Source: Escherchia phage Stokescottia. Taken from it: 64,000 bases of DNA. Shown piece by piece: positions 1-60,561 of this stretch (position 1 is the first letter of the stretch; every line of letters starts with the position of its first letter). The notes under the pieces are model-generated. The model did not search any database, was not told the origin of the DNA, and was given only the letters and a program-made list of their open reading frames with translations. Where the stretch lies: sequence record OR896820.1. One strand, given 5' to 3'. The position numbers were made by a program, and so were the translations under genes.

Positions 1-630
1 TTAGCAAAAAGATAGTCTTCTGCTTTAACTTCTCGCCAATTGCCTGTGGCTAAATCGCGATGAAATCCTGCATGACCTTGTAGGATTGAGAACACAACAA
101 TACTCCTGTGTTGGAAATGAAATAAGTTTTCTTTAGGACTATTCAGAAAGAATAGAACAACTGTTACTGTCAATTTCTCAACAAATTAATTGCAAATACT
201 GAAGTGGGGTGGCAACTTCCACTTTCACGCTGCGCTGCTGCTTTGCTATACCGCACAAATCCTTGAGGATGGCCGCTAAGCCAGATTTGCTCACCTAATG
301 CTTCATATACTAGCTCATACTAGATGCAATATAACTTACAGAATCACGTCTCGGAGTTTTTCACTCCTCCCGTCTCACTTCACAACCACCTCTATCTAGG
401 TTGCTTCGAGGCCTTACCAGGGTTCCTACGGGACGCAGATCGCTAAGTATTCTATTAACTATTTGTTTAAAAACCAACACGTAACAGTTAAAACAACCCT
501 TAATGGGGCAGCCTAACTGTTCCGTATCGCGGATTGTAAACAAGAAAAATTAGCAAAATCAATTTTTACTAATGTCTCTCATTTATGGGAATATTATACT
601 ATAAAATAATACTCCCTTGCAAATGAAATT

Positions 631-1146
631 TTACTGAATTGATTCCCTACCATATAATTGGCCCCTAAACATCTTGGCCATAGAACATGCAACTTCATAG
701 TTATCATATGTTCCTTTAACTACTCGTTTACGATTAATAGTAAATACTACTTGCCAGTTCTTACTACCAGAAGGGTAAACATGCATTCCTTTCTTATATT
801 TGGTATTTCTTAGATTACCAGTTACTGTCTGATCCCTAAGATTTTCAATACGATCATCGCCTTTTATAGTGTTCTCATGATCTACCAAATCAGGTAAGTA
901 TCCATGATGCATTAAGAAGATAGCTCTGTGTCGGAGCATAGTTCTACTCCCTAGAGAAATACGGTAATAACCATTCCCCGTTGAAACACAACATTCCTTG
1001 CCTGCATTTCTTCCTGTAGTTCTAAATAATTTTCCATCTTCATATCGGAAATTATCTAAAAGTTCTTGTTGTGTGAGCGACATCTTTACCTCCAATACAT
1101 ATATTATTACATAATCCATCCAATTTGTCAATGACAATTTATTCAT
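631..1146 (-). CDS. HNH homing endonuclease (HNH motif plus AP2-like C-terminal DNA-binding region)
   Basis: ORF track; motif LMHHGYLPDLVDHENT...N typical of HNH; C-terminal WQVVF..YDNYEVA resembles AP2 fold; likely true start at 1083 (MSLTQQ). Confidence 0.65.
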   Translation of the reverse strand: MNKLSLTNWMDYVIIYVLEVKMSLTQQELLDNFRYEDGKLFRTTGRNAGKECCVSTGNGYYRISLGSRTMLRHRAIFLMHHGYLPDLVDHENTIKGDDRIENLRDQTVTGNLRNTKYKKGMHVYPSGSKNWQVVFTINRKRVVKGTYDNYEVACSMAKMFRGQLYGRESIQ

Positions 1147-1225
1147 ACTGTCAATTAACTGGAAAGATTAGGTAATAATCCGAGCACTAATAGCCCGGAT
1201 TATAGAGTTCAGCTAATAAAAATCA

Positions 1226-1615
1226 TTAGTCACTTAACCCCGGAACATAGATCCCAACACGGTTTAATTGTTCTTTAGCTTCTTTGAGTATATCTGGAGT
1301 GTACTCCCAAATATCATCTTCCACCTGTAAAAGATGGGGCGAACAACCGTCATCAGGCACACGACATATGGCCAAACCACGTGGATGGAACAAAGAGAAA
1401 TTTAGGGCAACAATTAAACCCATAGCAGACAATTCATTCCAATCCAATTCCCATTCCCCGGCGTATCCAGACAGGAAAATGCCAATGCATGGATCATCTA
1501 TTTGCTGCTCCGGAAAAGTGAAGGAGGCTTGTCTTACCCCCAACCAACGTTGTAGCAGCTTCTCCGCACGTTTCACCAAACTAGGGTCAATCTGACGCCA
1601 ATATACTTGTTCCAT
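1226..1615 (-). CDS. hypothetical protein (paralog of 1625..2053)
   Basis: ORF track; shares ELD.NEL..MGL.ALN..LF.P and C-terminal G.Y.PGL with neighbouring ORF. Confidence 0.5.
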   Translation of the reverse strand: MEQVYWRQIDPSLVKRAEKLLQRWLGVRQASFTFPEQQIDDPCIGIFLSGYAGEWELDWNELSAMGLIVALNFSLFHPRGLAICRVPDDGCSPHLLQVEDDIWEYTPDILKEAKEQLNRVGIYVPGLSD

Positions 1616-1624
1616 CCTGCCTCC

Positions 1625-2053
1625 TTAAGCAGTTAAACCTGGGATCATATACCCGAAACGTCGAAGTTTCTGAATCCCATCATTTACTTCTTCCGGTGAG
1701 TAAGACCAACCATAACGTTCATTAACCTGAAAACCAGGAGATTCACTAGTTTTATAGTTAACAACGAGGCGATGCTTAGCAGGCATAAACAGCTTATAGT
1801 TTAACGCAAAAACTAAGCCCATTTCATCTAACTCTTTCCAGCCGACAATCTCTTCAAGACCCTCCTCTACCTGAACAATTAAACCAATACAGGGGGCCTC
1901 ATCAATATCATCTTTAAAAGCAAAGGAGATTTCGTTATTCTCACACCATATTTTCAAAGAGTTAATAGCCTTATTATACAGGCTAGCTGGGAGAGTACGC
2001 CAAAAGTTAACCAAAATTGGGTTAGCTTCTTTAGAGAATACATTATTAAACAT
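1625..2053 (-). CDS. hypothetical protein (paralog of 1226..1615)
   Basis: ORF track; tandem paralog, same conserved blocks. Confidence 0.5.
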   Translation of the reverse strand: MFNNVFSKEANPILVNFWRTLPASLYNKAINSLKIWCENNEISFAFKDDIDEAPCIGLIVQVEEGLEEIVGWKELDEMGLVFALNYKLFMPAKHRLVVNYKTSESPGFQVNERYGWSYSPEEVNDGIQKLRRFGYMIPGLTA

Positions 2054-2055
2054 AT

Positions 2056-2568
2056 TTACACCTTAAATTGTTGTAGGGCTTTACACATTTCAAGATCTGG
2101 ACTAAATTCTAACATATAGCTAACAGCTTTTAAATCTTGAAGATTTATTCCAGTCCTACCGTTGACTATAACCGTTGGATACTGATACATCATAGCACCC
2201 GCATCGTCAAGCACACACCAATGTTTGAGCCTATGCTTTTCAACGAAGCGAAGAACAGAATTACCCCTAGATAATCCACCCCCGGTAAAATCCGTTGTAC
2301 CAAGAAAACGATCGATAAGGCCTAATCCGGTCATAATCTGAACATTCTCCATCTCATTTCTGACAGAGAACCAAGATGATACTCCAACAATCATTATCGG
2401 GGAAGGACGAATAAAGTCCTGAAAAGCCTTGAGAAGCGGTTTGAAAACCCAGTCACTCCCAAAGAAAATCTTTTCATCATCAGGTGCATGATGGTGGGAG
2501 ATGCTCGAATTGAGCACCCCATCAATGTCTAGAAAAATAATTGGAGTATTACTTATTTCCTGATACAT
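2056..2568 (-). CDS. HAD-superfamily hydrolase/phosphatase-like protein
   Basis: N-terminal FLDIDGVL matches HAD motif I (DxDG[VT]); start overlaps upstream ORF stop. Confidence 0.55.
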   Translation of the reverse strand: MYQEISNTPIIFLDIDGVLNSSISHHHAPDDEKIFFGSDWVFKPLLKAFQDFIRPSPIMIVGVSSWFSVRNEMENVQIMTGLGLIDRFLGTTDFTGGGLSRGNSVLRFVEKHRLKHWCVLDDAGAMMYQYPTVIVNGRTGINLQDLKAVSYMLEFSPDLEMCKALQQFKV

Positions 2569-3364
2569 AAGGTCTATCCCCTAAATGAGCTTCTACACGA
2601 GCAATAAAATCAGGATCACTGAAAGCATCTACCGCACCTTTACTCCAGTAAGGGATACCGCGTTCTTCCAGCTGGTACATCTCACTACGAGTCATACCTT
2701 GATAGCCCGGTTCCACCGCTAGGGCACTATCATAGTAGTTAACAACCATTAGCTTGGCAGCAGTCAAATTAAGAACAGGAAATAATTCCCAGTAGAAATT
2801 AATTACTTGGTTAGAGCAACCAACCACAATGATCATATCTTGACTGGTAATACCATCAAAAATATTGTACATCTCCGCATATGCTGGAGCATGCTCTCCA
2901 AAGAAGATTACATTAGGTTTAACCCATTTATAATCATCTGGATCAATAGAATTGTATCCTACATCAATAATCCGTTTATTGCTACTATTGTAGCTATCAG
3001 CTACAACAACCTCTTTTAAATATCCGTGAATGTGCAGAATGTCACTATGTGAAACGCCAGCACGCTCAATAAGGTCATCAACGTTGGTAGTCAAGTTTAC
3101 TACTTGACCTGGATATTGTTTATACCATTCACCAATACGCAAATGCGCAAGATTGGGTTCAACAGTTTTTAGCTCTTCACGACGCTTGTTGTAAAACATA
3201 TGGGTTTTATGATAAAAATTACCACGAAAGGCATGAATATTACATACTTCTTCTAGATCATAATCATCCCACAGTGCTTTACCACTAGCAGTATCAGTAC
3301 GAAAAGCTCGTACACCACTTTCAACACTCAAACCTGCACCGCTAATAATAATTAATCTACGCAT
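2549..3364 (-). CDS. Sir2-family (sirtuin-like) NAD-dependent protein
   Basis: Motifs ISGAGLSVESGVRAFR, TTNVDDL, HIHG, VVGCS in the canonical Sir2 order. Confidence 0.7.
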   Translation of the reverse strand: MRRLIIISGAGLSVESGVRAFRTDTASGKALWDDYDLEEVCNIHAFRGNFYHKTHMFYNKRREELKTVEPNLAHLRIGEWYKQYPGQVVNLTTNVDDLIERAGVSHSDILHIHGYLKEVVVADSYNSSNKRIIDVGYNSIDPDDYKWVKPNVIFFGEHAPAYAEMYNIFDGITSQDMIIVVGCSNQVINFYWELFPVLNLTAAKLMVVNYYDSALAVEPGYQGMTRSEMYQLEERGIPYWSKGAVDAFSDPDFIARVEAHLGDRPYVSGNK

Positions 3365-3578
3365 TTTTCACCTGTTCTCTGAAGTTTTGCCCAATACTGT
3401 CTAATAGCTCAGCTAATTCTTTATTGCCTTTCTCCATTAAGGTATTAGCAATAACTTCTAGCATAGTAGCGCAGGATTCAACACCATCCTTATAGCCAGT
3501 TTCCCAGTGCTGCATTAATGCGTTTTCCAAAGCGGCGTTTAAACCCTTATCTGGTAGCATCGGCTTCGAGAATGCCAT
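3357..3578 (-). CDS. hypothetical protein
   Basis: ORF track; overlapping start/stop tiling with neighbours. Confidence 0.45.
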   Translation of the reverse strand: MAFSKPMLPDKGLNAALENALMQHWETGYKDGVESCATMLEVIANTLMEKGNKELAELLDSIGQNFREQVKNA

Positions 3579-3750
3579 AAAGTTTCTCCTCTAGTTCCAT
3601 AACACGATTTTCATAAGAGGCACGCAACTTTTCAATTGCCAGCGCACGCACTGTAACCTCATTAGAATTAATAGCTAATTGGGCCAGGTCTTCTGTTTCC
3701 ATACGTCCGTTGTAAATTAAGCGATATTTAAGATGTTTTACGTTTTTCAT
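3547..3750 (-). CDS. hypothetical protein
   Basis: ORF track; tiling with neighbours. Confidence 0.45.
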   Translation of the reverse strand: MKNVKHLKYRLIYNGRMETEDLAQLAINSNEVTVRALAIEKLRASYENRVMELEEKLYGILEADATR

Positions 3751-3959
3751 TCTTGTTCCTCAAACATTTCAATTTCTGCATTAGCAATAGAAAGGGCGGG
3801 CTCAGATAAGCACAATCCCATCCTAGGATCGATCTTCCCTTCGCCAATCCAAGTACTTACTAAACATAATTTAGTTATATCCTCACGGAGAATCGAACCA
3901 TATGCCCCAGAATCCATAATAAAATAGATACGTTCTTTATCTACCTTGTGAACTCTCAT
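3747..3959 (-). CDS. hypothetical protein
   Basis: ORF track; tiling with neighbours. Confidence 0.45.
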   Translation of the reverse strand: MRVHKVDKERIYFIMDSGAYGSILREDITKLCLVSTWIGEGKIDPRMGLCLSEPALSIANAEIEMFEEQE

Positions 3960-4058
3960 AGCTTTCTCCTCTCAAATTTATAAATCAATTATACATAAAT
4001 TTTTGGCTGAAAGCAAATAAAATAAAAGCCAGGTCGACTAGCAACCCGGCTGATTAGC

Positions 4059-5933
4059 TTACTTAGCTCGAATATCCTGATGCTTCACTCTGCCCATCAC
4101 CTCGTGCTGTTTGCCAGGGTTAAATGGACGAGCACCTGGATTTCCAAGATACCCACAAACTCGACGAGTTACTTCAAGAGTTTCGGGGTCATGATTACCA
4201 CAGATAGGGCACTTAAATCCATCTTCGGATGCTATTGTTTCACCTAAGAATCCACATTTACCACAAGAATCCACTGGAGTATTAATACCAAAGTAATGAA
4301 CCTTACTAGCCGCATAATTAATAACCCATTCCAGTGCATCTGGGAATCGTTTCATATCCGGTAGTTCTACATAGGAAATGCACCCACCAGAAGCAATCGG
4401 AGTAAAGTTAGACTCATAATCAAATTTCACGTTAGGAGCAACTTTACGTTCCACATCAAGGTGGTGAGAGTTAGTGTAGTATCCTTTGGACAGAATATCT
4501 TCATGCTCCGGGAAATATTCACGGTCTAGACGACAAAAACGGTCACATAGGGATTCTGATGGTGTAGCATACAGGCTATAGCCTAACTTAGTTTCTTCCT
4601 TCTTCTGATCGACTCTATCCCGCATGTACTGCAATACACGCTGAACAAACTTGATGCAGGTCTCGGACATTGTGTCCACATCTTTGCCAAACATGAACTG
4701 TAGCATTTCATGGCAACCAATATACCCTAGAGATACAGAAGCACGGTTATAGAAATGATCGAATACATATTCATCAGGCTCCAAGCGTAACCCAAAGGCT
4801 CCTGACATATAGAGGATGGGTGCAGCTTTAGCTTGGATGTATTTTAAGCGATCAACTCTCCACTCCAATGCTTTTAACGCTGTATCCACACGTAGCTCAA
4901 GCAAATCAAAGAATAGATCAATATTTCCTTCAGCTTCGATAGCAATTCTAGGCAAGTTTACAGAAACAACACCTAAGTTATTACGACCGGCAGTTTCACC
5001 GTCTTCTGTAGCAGCTAGGAATGAACGGCAGCCCATAGAAACTTTATAGTCTCCAGTAACTTCCACAACCTTATCATAGCTGATATAATCTGGATACATA
5101 CGTTCAGACGTACATTTCATAGCTAACTTCTTGATGTCATAATTAACATCTCCTGGTTTCATGTTAACACCATCACGAAGTACAAATACCAGTTTCGGGA
5201 AGATAGCTGTACGTTTATTGATACCTAAACCATCCATGCGTACTTTCAGTATTGCTTTCTGTACTAGACGTGCTTCCCAAGAAGTTCCTAGACCAAAACC
5301 AAAGGCAATAAAGGGACTCTGACCATTAGAGTTAAACATGGTATTGATTTCATATTCTAAACCCTGACAAGCGTCATAGACTTCTTTTTCAGTCATCTCC
5401 GTAGCCATTACGGATGCTTTGGCTTCATCCTTAGTCCAACGTTTTGCAAACGCATGATTTTTGTCATAGGATTTACGAACATAAGGAGCTAATACTTCAT
5501 CAAGGCGATCTACAGAGGTACCACCATACTGATGGGAGCTAACTTGAGTGATAATCTGAGCAGTAATAGCCGCCGCAGTAGTGATAGAGTTTGGAGTGCT
5601 AATTTCAGCATTACCAACCTTCATACCATTCTTCAACATATCTTCCAGGGCTACCAGACAACAGTTAGTCATGCCTAATGCAGCATAATCAGCATCATGG
5701 AAATGAATATCCCCAATCATATGAGCATTTCGAATCTGAATTGGCATTTCTTCTAGAATTAGATACTTACTCAATTCACCTGCAAGCATATCCCTTTGTG
5801 TAGGGAAACGTTCTGAGGGTTTATTGGCATTATTAAATAACAGTTCTTCATCTGCTGACCCTTCGATAATCTCTTTGCAGTTTCTAATTAATGCCTGCAT
5901 TTCTTTATATTTTAGTTCTTCATTACGATTCAT
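4059..5933 (-). CDS. nrdD: anaerobic ribonucleoside-triphosphate reductase (class III RNR)
   Basis: 624 aa; C-terminal glycyl-radical motif RVCGYLG and Cys-rich zinc ribbon CGKCGF...CPICG. Confidence 0.9.
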   Translation of the reverse strand: MNRNEELKYKEMQALIRNCKEIIEGSADEELLFNNANKPSERFPTQRDMLAGELSKYLILEEMPIQIRNAHMIGDIHFHDADYAALGMTNCCLVALEDMLKNGMKVGNAEISTPNSITTAAAITAQIITQVSSHQYGGTSVDRLDEVLAPYVRKSYDKNHAFAKRWTKDEAKASVMATEMTEKEVYDACQGLEYEINTMFNSNGQSPFIAFGFGLGTSWEARLVQKAILKVRMDGLGINKRTAIFPKLVFVLRDGVNMKPGDVNYDIKKLAMKCTSERMYPDYISYDKVVEVTGDYKVSMGCRSFLAATEDGETAGRNNLGVVSVNLPRIAIEAEGNIDLFFDLLELRVDTALKALEWRVDRLKYIQAKAAPILYMSGAFGLRLEPDEYVFDHFYNRASVSLGYIGCHEMLQFMFGKDVDTMSETCIKFVQRVLQYMRDRVDQKKEETKLGYSLYATPSESLCDRFCRLDREYFPEHEDILSKGYYTNSHHLDVERKVAPNVKFDYESNFTPIASGGCISYVELPDMKRFPDALEWVINYAASKVHYFGINTPVDSCGKCGFLGETIASEDGFKCPICGNHDPETLEVTRRVCGYLGNPGARPFNPGKQHEVMGRVKHQDIRAK

Positions 5934-15296: not shown

Positions 15297-15518
15297 ATGC
15301 GTAATTTTGTAGCAAAGAATGATTTTAACCGTGCTAGCACCCATAAGTCAGCTAGGGATTATACACGACTTTCTAGTCATGAGGTAATGGATTTAGCAGT
15401 GGATGAGTTAGACTTAGATGACCCCTATATGGAAGAGAACTGGGATGTCAGTGAGGATATGCTTCCTGGTTTTAAAGACCCCAAGAAGTGGGAGTCTATT
15501 AAAGAGACAGCTCTTTAA
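15297..15518 (+). CDS. hypothetical protein
   Basis: ORF track. Confidence 0.45.
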   Translation: MRNFVAKNDFNRASTHKSARDYTRLSSHEVMDLAVDELDLDDPYMEENWDVSEDMLPGFKDPKKWESIKETAL

Positions 15519-15546
15519 TAGTTTTCTACACAATAAAGGATAAGTT

Positions 15547-25038: not shown

Positions 25039-25074
25039 CTAATACAGCATTGGGCAAGTTCTTTAAAATTTGAC

Positions 25075-52299: not shown

Positions 52300-52348
52300 T
52301 TGTAATACTCCCCTAGTTAGTGGGGCGAAAGTAACGCCCCGTTATTAA

Positions 52349-52579
52349 TTACATTAAAACAATTTTTGCCGCTTGTTTTTTGGTACAGTGTTCCGCTTTC
52401 AGGGTATCCAGCAAAAAGCCAGCCGTTTGCTGATCGATTTTATCGGCGTTGTATAGTTCTTGGATGGTGTTATAAGTTTTAGCAATGCCGAACTCCTGCA
52501 CCATGTCATGAATGATGACGCGGTTAGACACCCAGCCTTGAGCGGTAAACAGATGACTAGCAGAAGAATAAGCAACCAT
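52349..52579 (-). CDS. hypothetical protein
   Basis: Start at 52579 after RBS GGAGG. Confidence 0.5.
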   Translation of the reverse strand: MVAYSSASHLFTAQGWVSNRVIIHDMVQEFGIAKTYNTIQELYNADKIDQQTAGFLLDTLKAEHCTKKQAAKIVLM

Positions 52580-52684
52580 TTTAAGCCTCCAAATTTTTGG
52601 GAAAATTTTCAATCCACCGTTTTGGTGTAAAGGCATTATAACAAAAAAGGCCGCCATAAAAGGCGACCTTTACAAAACTTTACA

Positions 52685-53179: not shown

Positions 53180-53243
53180 AATTAGCCTCCTATTAATTAA
53201 CAAGGGAATAGTAAAGCGGGGAAACAATCCCCGCTAAATATTA

Positions 53244-54489: not shown

Positions 54490-54620
54490 TTTTTACCCTG
54501 TATATTTATACAGTAGAATAACCTGTGGATAAGTCTGTGCAAAAGTCCTTATATCGCCGCCTATCGTGTCAAATCTTTTTGTGCTGTGGATAACATTGTG
54601 GATAACTTAAATGATAGTGG
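54490..54620. repeat. right copy of ~130-bp imperfect inverted repeat
   Basis: Reverse complement aligns with 50471-50600; DnaA-box-like 9-mers at 54524, 54585, 54597 and palindrome CTGTATATTTATACAG at 54498. Confidence 0.75.
54498..54513. promoter_or_regulatory. LexA-box-like palindrome upstream of the minus-strand cassette
   Basis: CTGTATATTTATACAGTA; on the minus strand reads CTGTATAAATATACAG about 285 bp upstream of the cassette start. Confidence 0.5.
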
Positions 54621-54880: not shown

Positions 54881-54886
54881 ATAAGT

Positions 54887-54923
54887 AGTTATCCACTGGA
54901 AAATAAAAGTCAAGTGGATAACT
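54887..54923. promoter_or_regulatory. palindromic pair of DnaA-box-like motifs (GTTATCCAC-N18-GTGGATAAC)
   Basis: Read directly; operator-like inverted repeat. Confidence 0.55.
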
Positions 54924-55368
54924 AGGAAAATTTCATTTTTGCTTTTGGGGATAAGTTATCAACAAGGCTAGAATGCGCCTAAAACGCTCCAGAACGCAAT
55001 AAAGTTTTTAGCCATCCCATCATAAGGGGATAGGCCGTTTATCGCTACCACGAGCTTTTTAGATTTTGTCAAGTAGGGCAAAGCAAATATAAATGAAAAA
55101 ATTACTTGCCTATCTGCTCTGTTTTGTGGTATTCGCGCGCCCGTTTCTTTTAATTTTAGGCCGTCGCCGGACGTGGTGCGGTGAATTTTGTCTTTACGTT
55201 TCTTTACAAAAATAGGGTTGCGCCATTTTCGGGAATCCCCTATTATTTATCACGTAGGGCGGCAATGACGAACTACACGGCGGGAAGTTTACCGCCGCGC
55301 TCTTTAAAAATTGGGTACATCTTAAAGCCTATCGGCGGTAAACTTATTCATTATAAGGAATCGACGAT

Positions 55369-55572
55369 ATGAAACAAACTTTATTGATCACTGGCAAGCC
55401 TAGCAAGGCACTAGATAGCAAAACAAAAAATTTGTTGACAGTAGCGCAAAGATCGGTAAAATATCGATTCACGCAGTACAAGAAAGGTCGCCAGCAAGGT
55501 TTAGAAATGATCTGGCGAAATATTATGATTGACCTGAAAGAAAATCATAAAAAATCTCAAAAAATTGTTTGA
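55369..55572 (+). CDS. small basic protein
   Basis: ORF track; RBS aggaa. Confidence 0.4.
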   Translation: MKQTLLITGKPSKALDSKTKNLLTVAQRSVKYRFTQYKKGRQQGLEMIWRNIMIDLKENHKKSQKIV

Positions 55573-55800
55573 CACCCTAGCCGATAGGCTTTAAGATGTA
55601 CCCAGTTCGACAAGAGCGATAACTTGATAAAATTTGACGGTCGGCACTTACCATAATGTGTCCCGCCCCCTAACTGGGATATAGCGGCCTACGTGGAGTT
55701 CTTTAAATTGATTATATTGGCGAGCGGATTGTTACTTATTACCTGCTACTTTCTAGCAGGTAATGCGGAACAATCCCCTAAATAACTTGGAGTTTATACT

Positions 55801-56052
55801 ATGCAAAACGTTATTACCGCGCCTAAAATTGGTCAATCCGTCTTCATTCCTTTCGTTACTAAAACGGATGAATTAACCGGAAAAGCCGAACGTATTAAAG
55901 GCGCGGCGCTTATGCCGTTTGATACAATCGACGCGGTATACGCTGAAACGGAACGTAGTAACAACGGCAAACCCGTTTTTAGCGTTCGCGTTAAATCCGG
56001 CGACGTTGTAAAGGTTGTTCAACGTAACGAAAAATGGGAAGCTGTTTTATAA
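55801..56052 (+). CDS. hypothetical protein
   Basis: ORF track; conserved upstream motif and GGAG RBS. Confidence 0.5.
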   Translation: MQNVITAPKIGQSVFIPFVTKTDELTGKAERIKGAALMPFDTIDAVYAETERSNNGKPVFSVRVKSGDVVKVVQRNEKWEAVL

Positions 56053-56150
56053 TCTAGTGTTAACTTTATATCCCCCTTATTTCAGGGGGATATAACGATT
56101 AACATTAAGTTAATCTAATCCCTTAAATTAAACAAACAGGAGTTTATATC

Positions 56151-56558
56151 ATGACTAACGCTAAAACCGCAAAATTTGCATGGAATGAAGAAAACACTCA
56201 AAAAGCTGTTTCCATGTATCAGCAATTAATCAACGAAAACGGTTTAGATTTTGCAAATAGCGACGGCCTGAAAGAGATTGCAAAAGCAGTAGGCGCGGCC
56301 TCCCCCGTATCCGTTCGGTCAAAATTGACCAGTGCAAAAGCCTATCAAAAAAGCGACAAGCCGCGCAAAGTTGGCGGCGGTAGTTCAATCCGCAAGGCTC
56401 ACTATGTGCGCGTTATTGCAAAACACGCTATCGATTCCGGCATTATCAAAGACGCCGACGATCTGGCAAGCCTTGAAAGTGCAAAATTGGAAACACTGGA
56501 CGCTGTAGCGCAATTGTTAGGCGTTGCCGATGAAGTGAAACAGGCCGCAGGGGAATAA
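56151..56558 (+). CDS. pre-early-type small protein (A2-like by size and position)
   Basis: 135 aa directly upstream of the A1-like gene; assignment by synteny and size only. Confidence 0.4.
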   Translation: MTNAKTAKFAWNEENTQKAVSMYQQLINENGLDFANSDGLKEIAKAVGAASPVSVRSKLTSAKAYQKSDKPRKVGGGSSIRKAHYVRVIAKHAIDSGIIKDADDLASLESAKLETLDAVAQLLGVADEVKQAAGE

Positions 56559-56648
56559 TAGTTATATCTTGCCCCCTTCTAGTGAGGGGGCAATAATATA
56601 ACTGTTTAGCGATAGTTATTTTCTTCCCTTAAATCAGGAGTTTTAAAA

Positions 56649-56846
56649 ATGATTTTCTTTCCTACTGAATCCTTAATTCTAGGCTTGTTTATTATGGCGG
56701 CCTCGTTATTGTTCGCTTATTTTCAAAATGATTTAGATTCGTATTATTTTAAACGCAAATCTAAATTGGCAAAGCGTTTAGGTCTGATTTGTTTTATTGC
56801 CGCCGTTGCTTGTGGTGTTAGTTCTAGCCTAGTGCCTTTAAATTAA
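56649..56846 (+). CDS. small membrane protein
   Basis: Two hydrophobic helices. Confidence 0.45.
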   Translation: MIFFPTESLILGLFIMAASLLFAYFQNDLDSYYFKRKSKLAKRLGLICFIAAVACGVSSSLVPLN

Positions 56847-56937
56847 TGTTGCAAATTATAACGCCTATTATTGGAGGCGTTATATTTGGCAATATTGCCA
56901 AAATTGAATTTAATCCCTTTAATGGAGTTTTATTACT

Positions 56938-58608
56938 ATGATTATTTCCGCAGAAAAACAAACCGTTATCCTGAAAATGGCCGCTGATTTCAATTTCTAC
57001 GGTAAACGCCTGCGCGCCACTAAATTGGAAGTTTGTGACGATATTTCGAAAGCGGTATACGATACTACTAAACACTCCACCACTATCTGCGACTGGCTGG
57101 AAGCAAATAAACCAGCGAAACCGAAAGCGGCAAAAGTAGCAAAAGCCATTAAAAACGATGAGCGCCCCGAAGCGGCTGGGATTGTTTCTAGTACCGTGGA
57201 ACAGTGGGAAGTAAAACAAGGTAAACGTTTTATTATTACGTCGATTCAAAATAATACTTTCCCGCATAAAAACTTTTTAGCCGCGCTGGAGCAATATGCT
57301 AAATTTATCGGCGCTGATTTGCTTGTTTCTAAGTATATTTATAATAAAAACGGATTCCAAAATGGGGAAGGTGCTGATGGGATCAAATATGATCCCGCTT
57401 TCGATAAATATATTTGCAGCAAAAACGTGTTTTTAAATAACCGCCGTTTCGCTTTCATGGCTGAAATTAATGTTTTGCCAACCGCAGATTATCCGCTTTC
57501 TGGATTTGCAGAAACTGCAACGGCTTTAAATATCGAGGGTCTGGCAATTGGTCACGCTAAAATCACCGCCGAAAGCGTGCCAGCTTTAAAAGGTGAAGTA
57601 GTGCGCCGTATGTATTCAACCGGAACGGCAACGCTCAAAAACTACATTCAGCAGAAAGCAGGACAGAAAGCGGAAGCACTTCATAATTTTGGCGCGCTTA
57701 TTGTTGAGTTCGACGACGACGGGGAGTTTTTTGTTCGCCAGCTTGAAACAATGGACGAAAGCGGCATGTTTTACGATTTGAATATTTGCGCCACTCCTTC
57801 GGGATGTTTTGAAACGTCGGGGCATGTTTTAGGCTTGCAGTATGGCGATATTCATGCAGAAAAACTAGATGAGGCTTGCGCTCAAGCGTCTTGGGGTCAT
57901 GGTGATACTTATGGGCTTGTGGATATTCTCAAACCGAAATATCAGTTTGTACATGATGTGCATGATTTTACATCCCGCAATCATCATAACCGCGCTTCTG
58001 GTGTATTCCTAGCGAAACAGTACGCCGCCGGACGTGATAAGGTTATTGATGATCTTATCGATACGGGGCGCGTGCTGGAATCAATGGAGCGTGATTTTTC
58101 TCAAACAATCATTGTTGAATCAAATCACGATTTGGCGTTATCCCGTTGGCTGGATGATCGAAATGCTAACATCAAAGACGATCCAGCAAACGCCGAACTA
58201 TATCACAGCCTAAACGCTGCAATCTATGCGGCTATTGCAAAGCAGGACGATACTTTCAACGTGCTAGATTATGCCTTGCGTAAGGTAGCAGGTTGTGAAT
58301 TTAACGCCATTTTCCTGACCACTGACCAATCGTTTAAAATTGCAGGCATTGAATGCGGCGTACACGGTCACAACGGCATAAACGGCAGCCGTGGCAATCC
58401 TAAGCAGTTTAAGAAATTGGGCAAGTTAAACACTGGTCATACTCATACGGCAAGCATTTACGGCGGCGTATATACCGCTGGCGTAGCAGGTAGTCTGGAT
58501 ATGGGTTACAACGTTGGCGCGTCAAGCTGGACGCAAACCCATTTAATTACATACGCAAACGGTCAGCGCACTTTGATTGACTTTAAGAATGGTAAATTCT
58601 TTGCGTAA
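56938..58608 (+). CDS. A1: A1-like pre-early protein with C-terminal metallophosphoesterase domain
   Basis: 556 aa; C-terminal half has GDIHAE, HDVHD, SNHD, GVHGHNG, TGHTHT blocks in calcineurin-like order; size matches what I recall for T5 A1. Confidence 0.55.
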   Translation: MIISAEKQTVILKMAADFNFYGKRLRATKLEVCDDISKAVYDTTKHSTTICDWLEANKPAKPKAAKVAKAIKNDERPEAAGIVSSTVEQWEVKQGKRFIITSIQNNTFPHKNFLAALEQYAKFIGADLLVSKYIYNKNGFQNGEGADGIKYDPAFDKYICSKNVFLNNRRFAFMAEINVLPTADYPLSGFAETATALNIEGLAIGHAKITAESVPALKGEVVRRMYSTGTATLKNYIQQKAGQKAEALHNFGALIVEFDDDGEFFVRQLETMDESGMFYDLNICATPSGCFETSGHVLGLQYGDIHAEKLDEACAQASWGHGDTYGLVDILKPKYQFVHDVHDFTSRNHHNRASGVFLAKQYAAGRDKVIDDLIDTGRVLESMERDFSQTIIVESNHDLALSRWLDDRNANIKDDPANAELYHSLNAAIYAAIAKQDDTFNVLDYALRKVAGCEFNAIFLTTDQSFKIAGIECGVHGHNGINGSRGNPKQFKKLGKLNTGHTHTASIYGGVYTAGVAGSLDMGYNVGASSWTQTHLITYANGQRTLIDFKNGKFFA

Positions 58609-58664
58609 TTAAATTATTACCCTAGCGGCTTGAAATATAGCCGCTATTACAGGAGCTAAATTAA

Positions 58665-58943
58665 ATGGCTATTAAAATTAATCTTCCCAACGTTAAAAAC
58701 ACCGCCGATACATGGTCGATTGATACTATATTGCGCGGCACTGTATACCGCAATTTAAAAGATAATAATTGTTATATTTATCAAAATGAATTAAACGGCC
58801 ACACTTATATAATTGAGTCCGATGGTTTTTGTTCTTTTGAGACTGATTATGAAGCGAAAGATCATATACAGGCAAATGATATTCCTGACGTATGGAAAGA
58901 AACAAATCTCGCTTTTGTTGTAAGTCTTGAAGCTAACAAATAA
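58665..58943 (+). CDS. hypothetical protein
   Basis: ORF track. Confidence 0.45.
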   Translation: MAIKINLPNVKNTADTWSIDTILRGTVYRNLKDNNCYIYQNELNGHTYIIESDGFCSFETDYEAKDHIQANDIPDVWKETNLAFVVSLEANK

Positions 58944-58981
58944 ATTAAATCCCTTATTAAATTAATTGGAGTTTTATAAAT

Positions 58982-59374
58982 ATGAAAAAGCAAAATATTC
59001 CTTTCGATCGCGCTCAATCCTCAATTGTTCTGGTTTATTCTAATGGCGAGCGTTATCACGTCGAGGCAGGGCACGTTATTGATGAATTATTAGACTTCAA
59101 TGACGCTTTACAGGTTACTACCTTTGCCTATACGCAAGGCCGCGCAAGTAGTTACATTAAGGCCGCAGGTGTTTATGTTGATACGGTGAAACAAGAAACG
59201 ATTATCATCGACGCCGTAAAATCCGGCCTTGCCTTTGCAGTTGTCGCGCCTTGCCCCGCTTGCCTCGATGATCACCTAGCGAGCGCAAAGGTATATACCT
59301 GCGCGGGTATTCGTTCCCATGTATCCGGCGAAGATATTAGTTTTATTGCTGATGCATTGGCTTATGGTCTTTAA
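58982..59374 (+). CDS. hypothetical protein
   Basis: ORF track. Confidence 0.5.
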   Translation: MKKQNIPFDRAQSSIVLVYSNGERYHVEAGHVIDELLDFNDALQVTTFAYTQGRASSYIKAAGVYVDTVKQETIIIDAVKSGLAFAVVAPCPACLDDHLASAKVYTCAGIRSHVSGEDISFIADALAYGL

Positions 59375-59453
59375 TAGTTGATTTATTATTGCCCGCTGAT
59401 AAATAGCGGGCAATGCTGAATTAATCTAATCCCTTTAATGGAGAACGTAACAA

Positions 59454-60188
59454 ATGAATAAAGCTATTATTAATTCTTTCCGTAATTTCCCGCATATTTC
59501 CCGCGTCATGATTTGGGATTTAGACGGCACTATCATTAATTCTTTCCATCGTGTAGCGCCTTGCTTTGATAGTGAGGGCAATTTAGATTTAAATAAGTAT
59601 AAAAATGAAGCCTGCAAACATCATTTAATAATGCAAGATACTTTATTGCCATTGGTTGAATATATGCGCCAGTGCATGAATGACGCAAATACTTTAAACA
59701 TTATTTGCACCGCTCGATTGATGAGCAAGTCGGATTACTATTTCTTGCGCAAACAAGGATTGCGAGGGCGTGGAAATAGCAATATCCGCGTGTTTTCCCG
59801 CGATACACTGCACAAATATTTTGAGGCTGATAAAGTTAGCGAAATATACCACAGCAAAGACGCAGTTTATAAATCTTATTACTTTGAGCTATTTAAACAG
59901 CTATATCCGAATGCTGATTTTACAATGATTGACGATCATAAAGGCGTGCTATCAGCGGCGGCATCATACGGGTTTAAAACGCTGGACGCGCAAGCCGTTA
60001 ACGATATTCTATCAATCGGCGTGGCATTGATAGGTGAAACCTTTATCGATGAATCTCTCGACGATGATAATGATTATCAGTTCCTAGCTGATCGCTTGAA
60101 ATTATGTTGGGAAAGTATGACCGAAGAAGAACGCGCAGAATATAGTTGCAGCCCGCAACAATATATTGAGAAATTAAAAGTTGCGTAA
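59454..60188 (+). CDS. dmp: HAD-family phosphatase (5'-deoxyribonucleotidase Dmp-like)
   Basis: N-terminal MIWDLDGTIINS matches HAD motif I; 244 aa in a pre-early-like context; symbol by analogy only. Confidence 0.45.
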   Translation: MNKAIINSFRNFPHISRVMIWDLDGTIINSFHRVAPCFDSEGNLDLNKYKNEACKHHLIMQDTLLPLVEYMRQCMNDANTLNIICTARLMSKSDYYFLRKQGLRGRGNSNIRVFSRDTLHKYFEADKVSEIYHSKDAVYKSYYFELFKQLYPNADFTMIDDHKGVLSAAASYGFKTLDAQAVNDILSIGVALIGETFIDESLDDDNDYQFLADRLKLCWESMTEEERAEYSCSPQQYIEKLKVA

Positions 60189-60201
60189 TAATTAAAGTTG
60201 A

Positions 60202-60239
60202 AATAGTCACGGTGTGTAACGATAACATGCCGTGACTAT
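60202..60239. terminator. palindromic hairpin between convergent genes
   Basis: ATAGTCACGG...CCGTGACTAT inverted repeat. Confidence 0.5.
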
Positions 60240-60345
60240 TAGCTTGCTAAGTACCGGGCGGTAATGAGACTCATTCTCATCTGGGAGGCCACTGGACACA
60301 CCTCCATGTGTAATCTTATGAAATTTGGCAAAAGTCAAATTAGCG

Positions 60346-60561
60346 CTATTTACGGGCTGACTGCCTGAGAATGGACTGCCATAGATGGTCAGTCTTAACA
60401 AGATTATTGATGTACTCAATAGCTTCACCAAATCTCATAAATCCTTCTGGAATTTCCGAAGACTTAGGAAAAACTTGTAGCATCCCTTGGGTGATACCCA
60501 TCTTTTCAAGTTCTTCTTGAGTTATCTCAAACTCCCCGAAAAACCGCCCGAATTCTTTCAT
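60346..60561 (-). CDS. hypothetical protein
   Basis: Start at 60561 (MKEFGRFF). Confidence 0.4.
   Translation of the reverse strand: MKEFGRFFGEFEITQEELEKMGITQGMLQVFPKSSEIPEGFMRFGEAIEYINNLVKTDHLWQSILRQSARK

What the first reader, a model, noticed from the sequence alone, without database searches (positions are those of the whole stretch)
55369..60239. Higher-GC pre-early-like module with its own conserved upstream motif and inter-genic palindromes
Genes from 55.4 to 60.2 kb are visibly more GC-rich than the early region and lack the TTGCTA-N17-TATAAT promoters. Several start codons are instead preceded by AATCCCTT(T/A)AAT..GGAG (56111, 56906, 58944, 59419; variant at 55771), and genes are separated by GC-rich palindromes without U-tracts (56076-56103, 56569-56593, 58622-58645, 59399-59424). 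Content (135 aa, 556 aa metallophosphoesterase-containing, 244 aa HAD phosphatase) resembles T5 pre-early genes A2, A1 and dmp, but the order and the two extra ORFs (58665..58943, 58982..59374) do not obviously match what I recall of T5. The motif may be a dedicated promoter or translational element for first-injected genes.
Basis: partly seen in the sequence, partly recalled or inferred. Interest (0 to 1): 0.6.

Follow-up and report, generated by a model that had tools for sequence, protein, structure and literature searches.

The report
T5 pre-early operon control signals
This stretch is the well-known "first-injected" gene operon of a T5-type phage, but it carries two conserved control signals that I could not find described: a short motif in front of almost every gene's ribosome-binding site, and a copy of the host's ribosomal-RNA antitermination signal (boxA) in the operon leader.

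Summary
The region is the leftward pre-early (first-step-transfer) operon of a Tequintavirus. It is 99.8% identical to Salmonella phage L6jm. Gene order and gene sizes are the same as in T5: hdi/T5.008, T5.007, A2, T5.005, A1, T5.003, T5.002, dmp.

The GC excess is trivial (40.8 vs 38.8%).

The upstream motif is real. (A/T)CCC, then an A/T-rich tract, then GGAG, precedes 6 of 7 operon genes, against 2 of 93 other predicted genes in the window. Every hit in a complete 109-kb relative lies in the pre-early region. The motif is conserved in Epseptimavirus and in Klebsiella, Pectobacterium and Proteus phages, and more weakly in Vibrio phages. It is not a promoter. Most likely it is part of each cistron's translation-initiation region, but that is inference.

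The intergenic palindromes are real RNA hairpins with compensatory changes and no U-tracts.

The operon leader also holds a conserved sigma-70 promoter, a hairpin and a perfect rrn-type boxA (55299-55310). The boxA is found family-wide and only on the sense strand upstream of A1. This suggests Nus-factor antitermination that carries RNA polymerase through the hairpins.

The module is known. The cis-elements appear undescribed.

The parts
55218..55246 (+). Candidate sigma-70 promoter upstream of hdi: TTGCGC (55218-55223), 17-nt spacer, TATTAT (55241-55246)
   Evidence: Phylogenetic footprint in 27 distinct Tequintavirus/Epseptimavirus sequences. Both hexamers are (near-)invariant while the spacer varies freely. 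Not experimentally mapped.
55278..55296 (+). Hairpin CGGCGG-GAAGTTTA-CCGCC directly upstream of boxA (boxB-like position)
   Evidence: Folds at -13.3 kcal/mol, z = -2.8. Vibrio phages also have a hairpin at the same place directly before boxA.
55299..55310 (+). rrn-type boxA, GCTCTTTAAAAA
   Evidence: Perfect match to the published gamma-proteobacterial consensus GYTCTTTAANA (PMC5725501). The 9-nt core is identical to the E. coli rrnB leader. It is the only exact GCTCTTTAAMAA in the window and in a 109-kb relative. Ten representative loci hold 19 sense-strand copies, all upstream of A1, and 1 antisense copy.
55298..55618 (+). 39-nt inverted repeat (arms 55298-55336 and 55580-55618) enclosing hdi
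   Evidence: 87% complementary, with 243 nt between the arms. The left arm includes boxA. The right arm includes the -10 of the second promoter.
55369..55572 (+). hdi / T5.008 homologue (67 aa)
   Evidence: Synteny with T5. Matches DUF7416 and phrog_4718.
55435..55462 (+). P_H22 homologue, TTGACA-16-TAAAAT, inside hdi
   Evidence: 11 of 12 consensus positions. 87% identical over 62 nt to the T5 feature annotated as promoter P-H 22. P_H22 is active in vivo in T5 (PMC7472727).
55569..55597 (+). Strong promoter-like site TTGACA-17-TAAGAT at the hdi stop codon; probable P_D/E20
   Evidence: 10 of 12 consensus positions. In Epseptimavirus a boxA starts 16 nt after the same TAAGAT. The T5 record's P-D/E20 feature is a 327-bp fragment that begins just downstream, so the assignment is inferred.
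55698..55708 (+). Decaying boxA-like element GTTCTTTAAAT in the T5.007 leader
   Evidence: 10 of 11 matches to GYTCTTTAANA. It occupies the position of the perfect second boxA of Epseptimavirus and Klebsiella phages. Among the 23 distinct Tequintavirus-type leaders (>=87% T5.007 identity) it varies: GTTCTTTAAAT 14, GTTCCTTAAAT 8, GTTCTTTAATT 1.
55726..55776 (+). Long leader hairpin before T5.007; its 3' arm contains the AATCC of the motif
   Evidence: -27.7 kcal/mol, z = -8.0. 6 of 18 pairs show compensatory double changes.
55772..55792 (+). Motif AATCCCCTAAAT plus GGAG in front of T5.007 (ORF 55801-56052)
56068..56115 (+). Two hairpins between T5.007 and A2: ATATCCCCC/GGGGGATAT, then GATTAAC/GTTAATC
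   Evidence: z = -5.0. 6 of 18 pairs show compensatory changes. The second hairpin does not vary.
56117..56142 (+). Motif AATCCCTTAAAT, 10 nt, GGAG, in front of A2 (ORF 56151-56558)
56560..56603 (+). Hairpin between A2 and T5.005
   Evidence: -25.5 kcal/mol, z = -5.9. The alignment was too gappy to test covariation.
56623..56640 (+). Motif variant CTTCCCTTAAAT, 2 nt, GGAG, in front of T5.005 (ORF 56649-56846)
56857..56902 (+). Hairpin TATAACGCCT/AGGCGTTATA followed by the palindrome TTTGGCAATATTGCCAAA, upstream of A1
   Evidence: z = -4.7. 2 of 15 pairs show compensatory changes. Hairpins with different sequences occupy the same place in My1, L045 and Proteus phages.
56912..56927 (+). Motif AATCCCTTTAAT abutting GGAG, in front of A1 (ORF 56938-58608)
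   Evidence: It stands as a conserved island next to a spacer that varies in both length and sequence across 34 distinct relatives.
58623..58655 (+). Hairpin, then GGAG with no motif, in front of T5.003 (ORF 58665-58943)
   Evidence: z = -4.4. This is the one operon gene that lacks the motif.
58948..58971 (+). Motif variant AATCCCTTATTAAAT, 5 nt, GGAG, in front of T5.002 (ORF 58982-59374); no hairpin here
59388..59414 (+). Hairpin ATTGCCCGCT/AGCGGGCAAT between T5.002 and dmp
   Evidence: z = -5.8. 7 of 17 pairs show compensatory changes.
59428..59443 (+). Motif AATCCCTTTAAT abutting GGAG, in front of dmp (ORF 59454-60188)
60203..60239 (+). Terminal hairpin after dmp, no U-tract, about 60 nt from the inferred physical left end of the genome (about 60299)
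   Evidence: -25.2 kcal/mol, z = -6.9. The genome end is inferred from the L6jm repeat offset.
52577..52602 (-). Motif TCCCAAAAATTTGGAGG plus ATG in front of the T5.012 homologue, in the rightward pre-early operon
   Evidence: The only composite hit outside the leftward operon. The same element precedes T5.012 in T5, at 7601.
53186..53208 (-). Motif-like TTCCCTTGTTAATTAATAGGAGG after a hairpin, in front of the 164-aa pre-early gene

Best explanation
What it is (shown). This is the leftward pre-early operon in the terminal repeat of a T5-type phage, transcribed toward the end of the genome that enters the cell first.

How it is transcribed. Host sigma-70 RNA polymerase starts at canonical promoters clustered at the operon head: a conserved TTGCGC-17-TATTAT upstream of hdi, the P_H22 homologue inside hdi, and a TTGACA-17-TAAGAT site at the hdi stop codon. 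There are no promoters between the downstream genes, so T5.007-A2-T5.005-A1-T5.003-T5.002-dmp is one long polycistronic mRNA. That last step is inferred, and it agrees with the T5 literature.

The hairpins. The cistrons are separated by stable hairpins that are selected as sense-strand RNA structures (shown by compensatory changes and by G-U tolerance). In this phage they lack U-tracts, so they are not efficient intrinsic terminators. They most likely protect mRNA 3' ends or insulate each start region from upstream coding RNA (inferred).

The motif. (A/T)CCC followed by a G-poor A/T-rich tract lies 0-10 nt upstream of GGAG in the window (6-20 nt from CCC to the SD block across the seven phages), with CCC 21-32 nt before the ATG. 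It is an integral part of each cistron's translation-initiation region. I propose it is an unstructured, pyrimidine/AU-rich landing or enhancer site of the kind bound by the 30S platform and ribosomal protein S1. It would give each pre-early cistron strong, independent initiation within seconds of DNA entry (inferred, not shown).

The boxA. The rrn-type boxA in the leader would load NusB/NusE and the rest of the Nus complex onto RNA polymerase. That would let it run through the intergenic hairpins, and through the true U-tract terminators found at the same places in relatives (inferred from sequence and conservation only).
For: Identity and synteny.

Promoters only at the operon head. The literature reports three mapped pre-early promoters and says dmp, A1 and A2 are 'likely' in the same operon (preprint 10.64898/2026.04.02.716235; PMC7472727).

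Motif specificity:
- 7 composite hits in the window against 0.5 in shuffles.
- 6 of 6 hits in T5 1-61.5 kb lie in the left terminal repeat.
- 5 of 5 hits in a complete 109-kb genome lie in the first 7.8 kb.
- 6 of 7 operon genes carry it, against 2 of 93 other genes; Fisher p = 1.6e-7.

Motif conservation: it survives where flanking intergenic sequence is unalignable, in 7 lineages down to 42% A1 identity. Each orthologue keeps its own CCC-to-ATG spacing class.

Motif travels with the SD, not with the hairpin:
- It lies inside the upstream ORF in My1 (before dmp).
- It overlaps the A1 stop codon in L045.
- It is present without a hairpin before T5.002.

Motif is mostly unpaired in predicted folds.

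Hairpins: z = -4.4 to -8.0. 21 of 68 pairs show compensatory double changes. 91 G-U cells against 9 A-C cells.

boxA.
Against: - No experiment bears on translation. The invariant CCC is not explained by a generic AU-rich S1 site.
- The motif is absent from all early and late genes. That fits a class-specific regulator better than a general enhancer.
- T5.003 does without the motif. Some relatives have lost the CCC before T5.002, e.g. L016 and L027.
- In the T5.007 leader the AATCC of the motif is paired in a conserved stem.
- In Tequintavirus the perfect boxA lies upstream of the two strongest promoters, so their transcripts carry only a drifting 10/11 copy.
- The boxA is also part of a 39-nt inverted repeat. 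Part of its conservation in this genus could therefore serve another purpose.
- GYTCTTTAANA has 3 other matches in the window, apparently by chance.
Confidence: 0.45

Rival explanations
1. The motif is an endonucleolytic processing site. A host enzyme such as RNase E/G, or an unknown nuclease, would cut in the single-stranded tract. This would turn the polycistronic RNA into monocistronic mRNAs whose 3' ends are protected by the upstream hairpin.
For: The layout 'hairpin, unpaired A/U-rich tract, SD' recurs at five junctions. GA-AUU-type sequences lie just upstream of the motif at A1 and dmp. This parallels the RNase III-processed T7 early operon (my own knowledge).
Against: CCC is not part of any RNase E consensus I know. 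The motif also occurs without a hairpin and inside coding sequence. Its distance to the hairpin varies from 10 to 32 nt, while its distance to the SD is tight.
Confidence: 0.2
2. The motif is a class-specific operator. A phage or host RNA-binding protein or nuclease would recognise it next to the SD to shut off pre-early protein synthesis after second-step transfer. This would be functionally like T4 RegA or RegB acting on early mRNAs.
For: The motif is strictly restricted to pre-early cistrons, in both operons. It has an invariant core beyond simple AU-richness. It is adjacent to a uniform GGAG. Pre-early shutoff is a known, A1-dependent phenomenon.
Against: The literature attributes shutoff to A1 acting on RNA polymerase at pre-early promoters. 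No RNA-binding domain was found in the operon proteins. No candidate factor was identified.
Confidence: 0.15
3. The motif is a diverged boxA that reloads or retains NusB/NusE at each cistron, as the spacer boxA does in rrn operons. Alternatively it represses translation, as the suhB boxA does 6 nt from its SD.
For: TCCCTTTAATG matches GYTCTTTAANA at 8 of 11 positions and keeps C4 and T6, which were mutated in the suhB study. It usually follows a hairpin, as boxA follows boxB in rrn. True boxAs exist in the same operon.
Against: The same phages keep perfect GCTCTTTAA in their leaders, yet the intergenic element is consistently TCCC, never GCTC, in every lineage. These are therefore two separately selected motifs. 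G1 and T3 of the consensus are both changed.
Confidence: 0.08
4. The motif is, or overlaps, an internal promoter, with TTTAAT/TTAAAT as the -10. Each pre-early gene would then have its own start site.
For: The A/T hexamers resemble a -10. TTGGCA-17-TTTAAT can be read upstream of A1 in the window. T5 early genes combine terminators with promoters.
Against: At A1 and dmp a start site about 7 nt after the motif would delete the SD. The -35 spacing is 17 nt in the window but 23 nt in T5. The hexamers lack A at -11 and are not reported by the scan. U-tract terminators abut the motif in My1, L045 and Proteus phages. Only three pre-early promoters were mapped experimentally.
Confidence: 0.04
5. The motif acts at the DNA level, for example as binding sites for the A2 DNA-binding protein on first-step-transfer DNA. 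Or it is merely inherited filler from duplicated intergenic cassettes.
For: There are seven copies on the 10-kb first-transferred segment. A2 is a DNA-binding protein required for second-step transfer.
Against: Orientation always follows the gene, including the copy in the opposite-strand operon. The motif is tied to the SD at 0-10 nt. It is conserved while neighbouring spacer sequence turns over, which argues against neutrality.
Confidence: 0.06

Closest known systems
Bacteriophage T5 pre-early (first-step-transfer) operon dmp-A1-A2 with promoters P_H22 and P_D/E20
   Same: Same genes, same order, same sizes, same place in the terminal repeat next to the genome end. 88.5% DNA identity. The P_H22 sequence is 87% identical.
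   Different: Nothing essential. The window lacks the hegG homing-endonuclease insertion and its TTGCTA-type promoter that T5 has upstream. The motif, the hairpin set and the boxA are present in T5 too, but are not annotated there.
[quoted passage not shown]
   Same: The leader element matches GYTCTTTAANA perfectly and follows a hairpin, as in rrnB. It lies on the sense strand downstream of promoters in all lineages. In one Klebsiella-phage locus (L043), 19 consecutive bases equal the rrnB leader.
   Different: No boxC (TGTGTGGG) follows. No N-like protein is known in T5. The transcripts are translated mRNAs. In this genus the perfect copy lies upstream of the two strongest promoters. Binding and antitermination are untested.
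A/U- and pyrimidine-rich translational enhancers upstream of the SD (T7 gene 10 epsilon leader, E. coli atpE leader; S1 target sites) - recalled from my own knowledge
   Same: Position 15-35 nt before the start codon, G-poor and mostly unpaired, variable short distance to the SD. The A2 leader ...AAACAAACAGGAG resembles the atpE leader ...AAACAAACUGGAG as I recall it.
   Different: An invariant CCC core. Restriction to one temporal gene class. No experimental evidence of enhancement.
T4-type PeSL cassettes (early promoter plus stem-loop between early genes) and the RNase III-punctuated T7 early operon - recalled from my own knowledge
   Same: A repeated 'stem-loop plus short conserved signal' unit sits between small host-takeover genes. 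Relatives that lost T5.003 join the A1 hairpin directly to the T5.002 start region, as expected if these units mark module boundaries.
   Different: The conserved signal is not a promoter. The stems have 8-12 bp, too short for RNase III, which needs about 20 bp.
suhB 5' UTR boxA (Nus-dependent translational repression)
   Same: A boxA-like pyrimidine element lies a few nucleotides upstream of an SD (PMC5725501).
   Different: The T5 intergenic motif departs from the boxA consensus at G1, T3 and A11, and does so consistently.

Membership tests
T5-type pre-early (FST) operon | Orthologues of A1, A2 and dmp | tested here: met
   DNA is 99.8% identical to L6jm and 88.5% to T5. The features under the match are annotated A1, A2 and dmp. 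PHROG hits have E-values of 3e-244 (A1), 4e-52 (A2) and 2e-56 (dmp).
T5-type pre-early (FST) operon | Same gene order and orientation as T5, running toward the genome end | tested here: met
   Eight ORFs of 67/83/135/65/556/92/130/244 aa in the window, against T5.008 to T5.001 in the same order.
T5-type pre-early (FST) operon | Location inside the long terminal direct repeat | tested here: met
   The match falls in T5's annotated left terminal repeat. It occurs twice in records that include both repeats.
T5-type pre-early (FST) operon | Expression before second-step transfer | not testable with these tools
   Known for T5 and Bas33 from the literature.
Sigma-70 promoter (as the identity of the AATCCCTTWAAT motif) | -35 and -10 hexamers at 16-18 nt, placed so that the transcript contains the SD | tested here: not met
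   No scan hit at any motif. The motif abuts GGAG at A1 and dmp. The -35 distance is not conserved.
Intrinsic (Rho-independent) terminator (as the identity of the intergenic hairpins) | GC-rich stem followed by a U-tract | tested here: not met
   None of the compensatory-change-supported hairpins is reported as terminator-like in the window; the scan's only intergenic call is the AT-rich palindrome 56885-56902. Some hairpins at equivalent positions in My1, L045 and Proteus phages do have U-tracts.
Conserved RNA hairpin | Stability above shuffles, plus compensatory base changes in relatives | tested here: met
   z = -4.4 to -8.0. 6/18, 2/15, 7/17 and 6/18 pairs show double changes. G-U to A-C ratio is 91:9 (partly circular, because RNAalifold accepts G-U pairs).
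RNase III processing site (for the intergenic hairpins) | About 20 bp or more of helix | tested here: not met
   Core GC-rich stems are 8-12 bp. Only the 39-nt inverted repeat around hdi would qualify.
boxA / Nus-factor antitermination site (leader element 55299-55310) | Match to the consensus GYTCTTTAANA | tested here: met
   GCTCTTTAAAA matches 11 of 11.
boxA / Nus-factor antitermination site (leader element 55299-55310) | On the transcribed strand, downstream of a promoter, upstream of the regulated genes | tested here: met
   A conserved promoter footprint lies about 45 nt upstream. There are 19 sense and 1 antisense copies, all upstream of A1, in 10 lineages. Copies lie 16-18 nt after -10-like hexamers in Proteus, Klebsiella and Epseptimavirus phages. 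The promoter itself is inferred.
boxA / Nus-factor antitermination site (leader element 55299-55310) | Binds NusB/NusE and confers read-through of terminators | not testable with these tools
   Needs gel-shift, ChIP or reporter assays.
boxA (as the identity of the intergenic AATCCCTTWAAT motif) | Match to GYTCTTTAANA | tested here: not met
   8 of 11 at best. G1 and T3 are consistently replaced (TCCC) in all lineages.
S1-type translational enhancer / standby site | Unpaired pyrimidine/AU-rich tract 15-35 nt upstream of the start codon | tested here: met
   CCC-to-ATG distance is 21-32 nt in 40 instances from 7 phages. The tract is mostly unpaired in 5 of 6 predicted folds.
S1-type translational enhancer / standby site | Raises translation initiation; binds S1 / the 30S subunit | not testable with these tools
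   Needs reporter fusions and toeprinting.
Calcineurin-like metallophosphoesterase (A1) and HAD phosphatase (dmp) | Pfam domain hit | tested here: not met
   No Pfam family at E<=0.01. Catalytic-type motifs are visible in the sequence: GDIHAE, GHTHT, DLDGT. A1 is called a putative metallo-phosphatase in preprint 10.64898/2026.04.02.716235.

The most novel reading that the evidence does not exclude
T5-like phages (Demerecviridae) take over the host's ribosomal-RNA antitermination machinery (NusB/NusE/NusA/NusG/SuhB) without any N-like protein. They do so by placing rrn-type boxB-like hairpin plus boxA signals directly behind their pre-early promoters. This makes the first-injected operon resistant to Rho and to its own intercistronic hairpins and terminators. 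The separate TCCC-A/T-GGAG leader motif is a second signal, specific to the pre-early class. It is read by a still unknown factor that sets the translation or lifetime of pre-early messages, and could underlie their timed shutoff.
Probability: 0.3. Interest if true: 0.7.

Novelty: new variant of a known kind. Interest (0 to 1): 0.5.

Why it matters
The pre-early operon is what T5 expresses while 92% of its DNA is still outside the cell. A1 and A2 made from it destroy host DNA and restart injection. How these genes are expressed so fast, and how they are shut off, is still open.

Two family-wide signals, found only in the pre-early region, give concrete handles that can be mutated. A boxA would tie T5 takeover to host Nus factors, and it predicts nusB/nusE/suhB host phenotypes. 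The leader motif gives a candidate for class-specific translational control. Both also matter for engineering T5-like therapeutic phages, and for re-annotating small ORFs that overlap these signals and are probably spurious (T5.009, L6jm ORF164).

Tried and rejected
- **Rfam.** A scan of 54.3-60.5 kb at E<=1 gave only two chance eukaryotic hits.
- **Pfam.** No domains were found for A1, A2 or dmp.
- **Literature.** The motif string is in no relevant paper. No paper combines boxA or Nus factors with T5. Davison's preprint describes the repeat regions but says nothing about transcription or boxA. Davison 2015 (PMC4743489) is not held. No T5 transcription-start map was found.
- **Exact-pattern scan of IMG/VR.** ATCCCTTWAATGGAG returned T5-like genomes with 2 copies each, plus many single, chance-level hits in unrelated contigs. 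This was uninformative.
- **16S rRNA complementarity.** Only the 6-mer AAGGGA at position 451 is complementary to the motif, and longer versions are absent. I rejected this as chance.
- **SD-sequestering pairing.** AAUCCC with GGAGUU always keeps a C-A mismatch and does not covary in relatives. Rejected by inspection.
- **Competition between the motif and the hairpin 3' arms.** The complementarity is not consistent across junctions.
- **Motif-like AATCCCC at 55232.** It lies in the variable spacer of the conserved promoter and is not conserved.
- **Higher GC as a sign of a foreign module.** Rejected; the difference is 2 points.

Full report
**1. What the region is**

Window 55000-60500 is 99.8% identical over its full length to Salmonella phage L6jm, a Tequintavirus. 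It matches 509 phage records, among them T5 itself (AY543070 positions 105-5278, minus strand, 88.5% identity).

In T5 this stretch lies inside the annotated left terminal repeat, described as 'first-step-transfer DNA; enters host cell first'. T5 there carries dmp (T5.001), T5.002, T5.003, A1, T5.005, A2, T5.007 and T5.008, all on one strand.

The window has ORFs of 67, 83, 135, 65, 556, 92, 130 and 244 aa in exactly that order on the + strand. PHROG families agree with the T5 proteins. T5.008 is hdi in the recent literature.

Its worry about order and 'two extra ORFs' is unfounded: the extra ORFs are T5.003 and T5.002.

Pfam finds no metallophosphoesterase or HAD domain at E<=0.01. A1 is nevertheless called a putative metallo-phosphatase in preprint 10.64898/2026.04.02.716235.

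From the L6jm repeat offset, the physical left end of the genome corresponds to about window 60299. The operon therefore runs toward the end of the genome that enters first.

**2. Checking the observation**

GC content:
- GC is 40.8% in 55369-60239, against 38.8% in the early region and 39.1% overall.
- This is within the 1-kb scatter. The 'higher GC' claim is not meaningful.

TTGCTA-type promoters:
- There are 8 exact TTGCTA-N16-18-TATAAT sites, against 0.12 expected.
- All lie at 9.8-43.4 kb and none lies here.

The region does have canonical sigma-70 sites of its own:
- TTGACA-16-TAAAAT at 55435-55462. It is 87% identical to the T5 feature 'promoter P-H 22'.
- TTGACA-17-TAAGAT at 55569-55597, at the hdi stop codon. 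This is the probable P_D/E20.

T5 literature:
- It reports three experimentally characterised pre-early promoters: P_H22, P_D/E20 and one before gene 011. It treats dmp, A1 and A2 as likely belonging to one operon.
- P_H22 is active in vivo (PMC7472727).

**3. The motif is real and specific to the pre-early class**

Occurrences in the window:
- AATCCCTTWAAT occurs exactly at 56117, 56912 and 59428, and with one mismatch at 55772. There are 5 hits at <=1 mismatch against 1.44 expected.
- Variants lie at 56623 and 58948.

I wrote the element as a composite pattern: [AT]CCC, two non-G bases, three A/T, 0-14 nt, GGAG, 4-13 nt, start codon. Results with this pattern:

| Sequence scanned | Hits | Where | Chance expectation |
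|---|---|---|---|
| Window | 7 | 6 in the operon; 1 on the other strand before the T5.012 homologue | 0.5 in shuffles |
| T5 1-61.5 kb | 6 | all in the left terminal repeat | 0.6 in shuffles |
| Complete genome of phage Kenya-K43 (109,291 bp) | 5 | all in the first 7.8 kb | 1.8 in shuffles |

Six of 7 operon genes carry WCCC.. at -37..-10, against 2 of 93 other predicted genes in the window (Fisher p = 1.6e-7). One of those two is the T-arm of a tRNA.

**4. Conservation of the motif**

The same element precedes 5-6 operon genes in each of these lineages:
- T5.
- An Epseptimavirus-like phage.
- A Klebsiella phage.
- A phage with 67% A1 identity (L045).
- Pectobacterium phage My1.
- A Proteus-type phage, with only 42-43% A1 identity.

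Vibrio relatives have a looser form: ACCCATAAATGGAG, ACCCACTAAGAGAG, CCCAATGAGG.

Further points:
- The CCC-to-ATG distance is 21-32 nt. Each orthologue keeps its own spacing class.
- In alignments of 26-34 distinct upstream sequences per gene, the motif and GGAG stand out as conserved islands.
- Upstream of A1, the 11-17 nt between the TTTGGCAAT..GCC palindrome and the motif differ in both length and sequence between close relatives. ATCCCTTTAATGGAG itself stays fixed.

**5. What the motif is not**

It is not a promoter:
- At A1 and dmp it abuts GGAG, so initiation downstream of a TTTAAT '-10' would remove the SD.
- The only plausible -35 (TTGGCA) lies 17 nt away in the window but 23 nt away in T5.
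- The hexamers lack A at -11 and are not picked up by the scan.
- In My1, L045 and Proteus phages, true U-tract terminators run directly into the motif.

It is not a boxA:
- It matches the published consensus GYTCTTTAANA (PMC5725501) at 8 of 11 positions at best.
- It is TCCC rather than GCTC in every lineage, although the same phages keep perfect boxAs elsewhere.

It is not explained by pairing:
- Only a 6-mer in 16S rRNA is complementary.
- Pairing with the SD would always keep a C-A mismatch.

No Rfam family matches. The sequence appears in no relevant paper.

**6. What the motif most likely is**

It travels with the SD, not with the hairpin:
- It is present without a hairpin before T5.002.
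- It lies inside the upstream ORF before My1 dmp.
- It overlaps the A1 stop codon in L045.

The tract between CCC and GGAG is almost free of G. It is mostly unpaired in predicted folds, except in the T5.007 leader, where AATCC closes a long stem.

Position, composition and orientation fit an upstream element of the translation-initiation region. I propose a pyrimidine/AU-rich 30S or S1 landing site that gives each cistron of a long mRNA independent, strong initiation. This is inference.

Two facts strain this reading and keep rivals alive. The CCC is invariant, and the motif is restricted to pre-early genes. The rivals are a class-specific operator (RegA/RegB-like logic) and a processing site.

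**7. The palindromes**

Seven hairpins fold far better than shuffles, with z from -4.4 to -8.0.

Compensatory double changes across 23-24 distinct relatives:

| Hairpin before | Pairs with double changes |
|---|---|
| T5.007 | 6 of 18 |
| A2 | 6 of 18 |
| A1 | 2 of 15 |
| dmp | 7 of 17 |

Hairpins with unrelated sequences occupy the same positions in My1, L045 and Proteus phages.

G-U cells outnumber A-C cells 91 to 9. This points to sense-strand RNA. The count is partly circular, because RNAalifold accepts G-U pairs.

None of these covariation-supported hairpins has a U-tract in the window; the scan's only terminator-like call in an intergenic gap is the AT-rich palindrome 56885-56902. Some hairpins in relatives do have U-tracts. 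The core stems of 8-12 bp are too short for RNase III.

**8.

GCTCTTTAAAAA lies at 55299-55310, 60 nt upstream of hdi. It matches GYTCTTTAANA perfectly, and its 9-nt core is identical to that of the E. coli rrnB leader.

Its surroundings:
- It follows a hairpin at 55278-55296.
- It follows a promoter footprint, TTGCGC-17-TATTAT at 55218-55246. Both hexamers are (near-)invariant and the spacer varies in 27 distinct sequences.

Its distribution:
- It is the only exact GCTCTTTAAMAA in the window and in the 109-kb genome.
- Ten representative Demerecviridae loci, Vibrio phages included, hold 19 sense-strand consensus copies. All are upstream of A1. There is 1 antisense copy.
- Copies often lie 16-18 nt after a -10-like hexamer, or directly after a hairpin.
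- One Klebsiella-phage locus (L043) shares 19 consecutive bases with the rrnB leader.

Caveats:
- In Tequintavirus the perfect copy lies upstream of P_H22 and of the TAAGAT promoter. The second copy, in the T5.007 leader, has drifted to GTTCTTTAAAT or GTTCCTTAAAT.
- The boxA is also the outer end of a 39-nt inverted repeat that encloses hdi.
- Three other consensus matches in the window look like chance.

I found no paper linking T5 to boxA or Nus factors.

If the boxA is functional, it explains how RNA polymerase passes the intercistronic hairpins and terminators.

**9. Verdict**

The module is a known one. The palindromes are genuine RNA structures.

The operon carries two conserved signals, restricted to the pre-early region, that appear to be undescribed. 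Their mechanisms are inferred, not shown.

Noticed in passing
window 55218-55310: A conserved promoter footprint (TTGCGC-17-TATTAT), a hairpin and a perfect rrn-type boxA (GCTCTTTAAAAA) lie upstream of hdi. boxA copies occur on the sense strand upstream of A1 in all Demerecviridae loci examined, including Vibrio phages.
   Followed up: yes
window 55298-55336 and 55580-55618: A 39-nt inverted repeat, 87% complementary, encloses the hdi ORF. In a transcript from the upstream promoter it would form a long leader-trailer helix around hdi. This is reminiscent of the RNase III stems around 16S rRNA. The right arm contains the -10 (TAAGAT) of the next promoter. It probably corresponds to Davison's IRA/IRA'.
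   Followed up: partly
window 55266-55372 (T5.009 homologue) and 56846-56941 (L6jm ORF164): These two small annotated ORFs overlap the boxA leader and the hairpin/motif region before A1, respectively. The T5.009 ATG is not conserved in Epseptimavirus-like sequences. Both are probably not genes.
   Followed up: partly
window 52348-52656, minus strand: L6jm annotates a 102-aa ORF here. The motif plus GGAGG plus ATG at 52602-52577 matches the start of T5.012 (76 aa) in T5, so the annotated start is probably too far upstream.
   Followed up: partly
window 54520-54610 and 54885-54925: Clusters of TGTGGATAA / TTATCCAC sequences (DnaA-box consensus) lie in the non-coding stretch between the two divergent pre-early operons. 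Davison described these for T5-like phages.
   Followed up: no
window about 49912 and about 60299: The window reads as a single terminal-repeat copy flanked by early genes on one side and late genes (receptor-binding protein, terminase) on the other. That is a collapsed-repeat or concatemer-type layout rather than the linear virion order of the L6jm record.
   Followed up: partly
window 15510-15520 and 25058-25068: There are further perfect matches to the boxA consensus GYTCTTTAANA in the early region. One lies in the arm of a palindrome (CTATTAAAGAG...CTCTTTAATAG). The other lies in the loop of a hairpin (ATTGGGCAAG...CTTGCCCAAT). They are probably chance matches; I did not check conservation.
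   Followed up: no
L212 about 3450-3530 and 3900-3985; L213 about 3920-3975: Vibrio T5-like phages carry repeated operator-like palindromes (TTTACAGTGTAAAT ... TTTACACTGTAAAT) between A2, gp12 and A1. Enterobacterial phages have the GC-rich hairpins at these positions.
   Followed up: no
L016, L027 (T5.002 upstream): Relatives that lack T5.003 join the A1-downstream hairpin directly to the T5.002 start region and lose the TCCC of the motif. This suggests recombination at these intergenic units, and shows the CCC is dispensable for this non-essential gene.
   Followed up: no
window 56096-56115: An invariant A/U-rich hairpin, GATTAAC-ATTAA-GTTAATC, lies directly before the A2 motif. It is unchanged in all 23 relatives, so covariation cannot be judged. 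The string TTAATCTAATCCC recurs before dmp.
   Followed up: no
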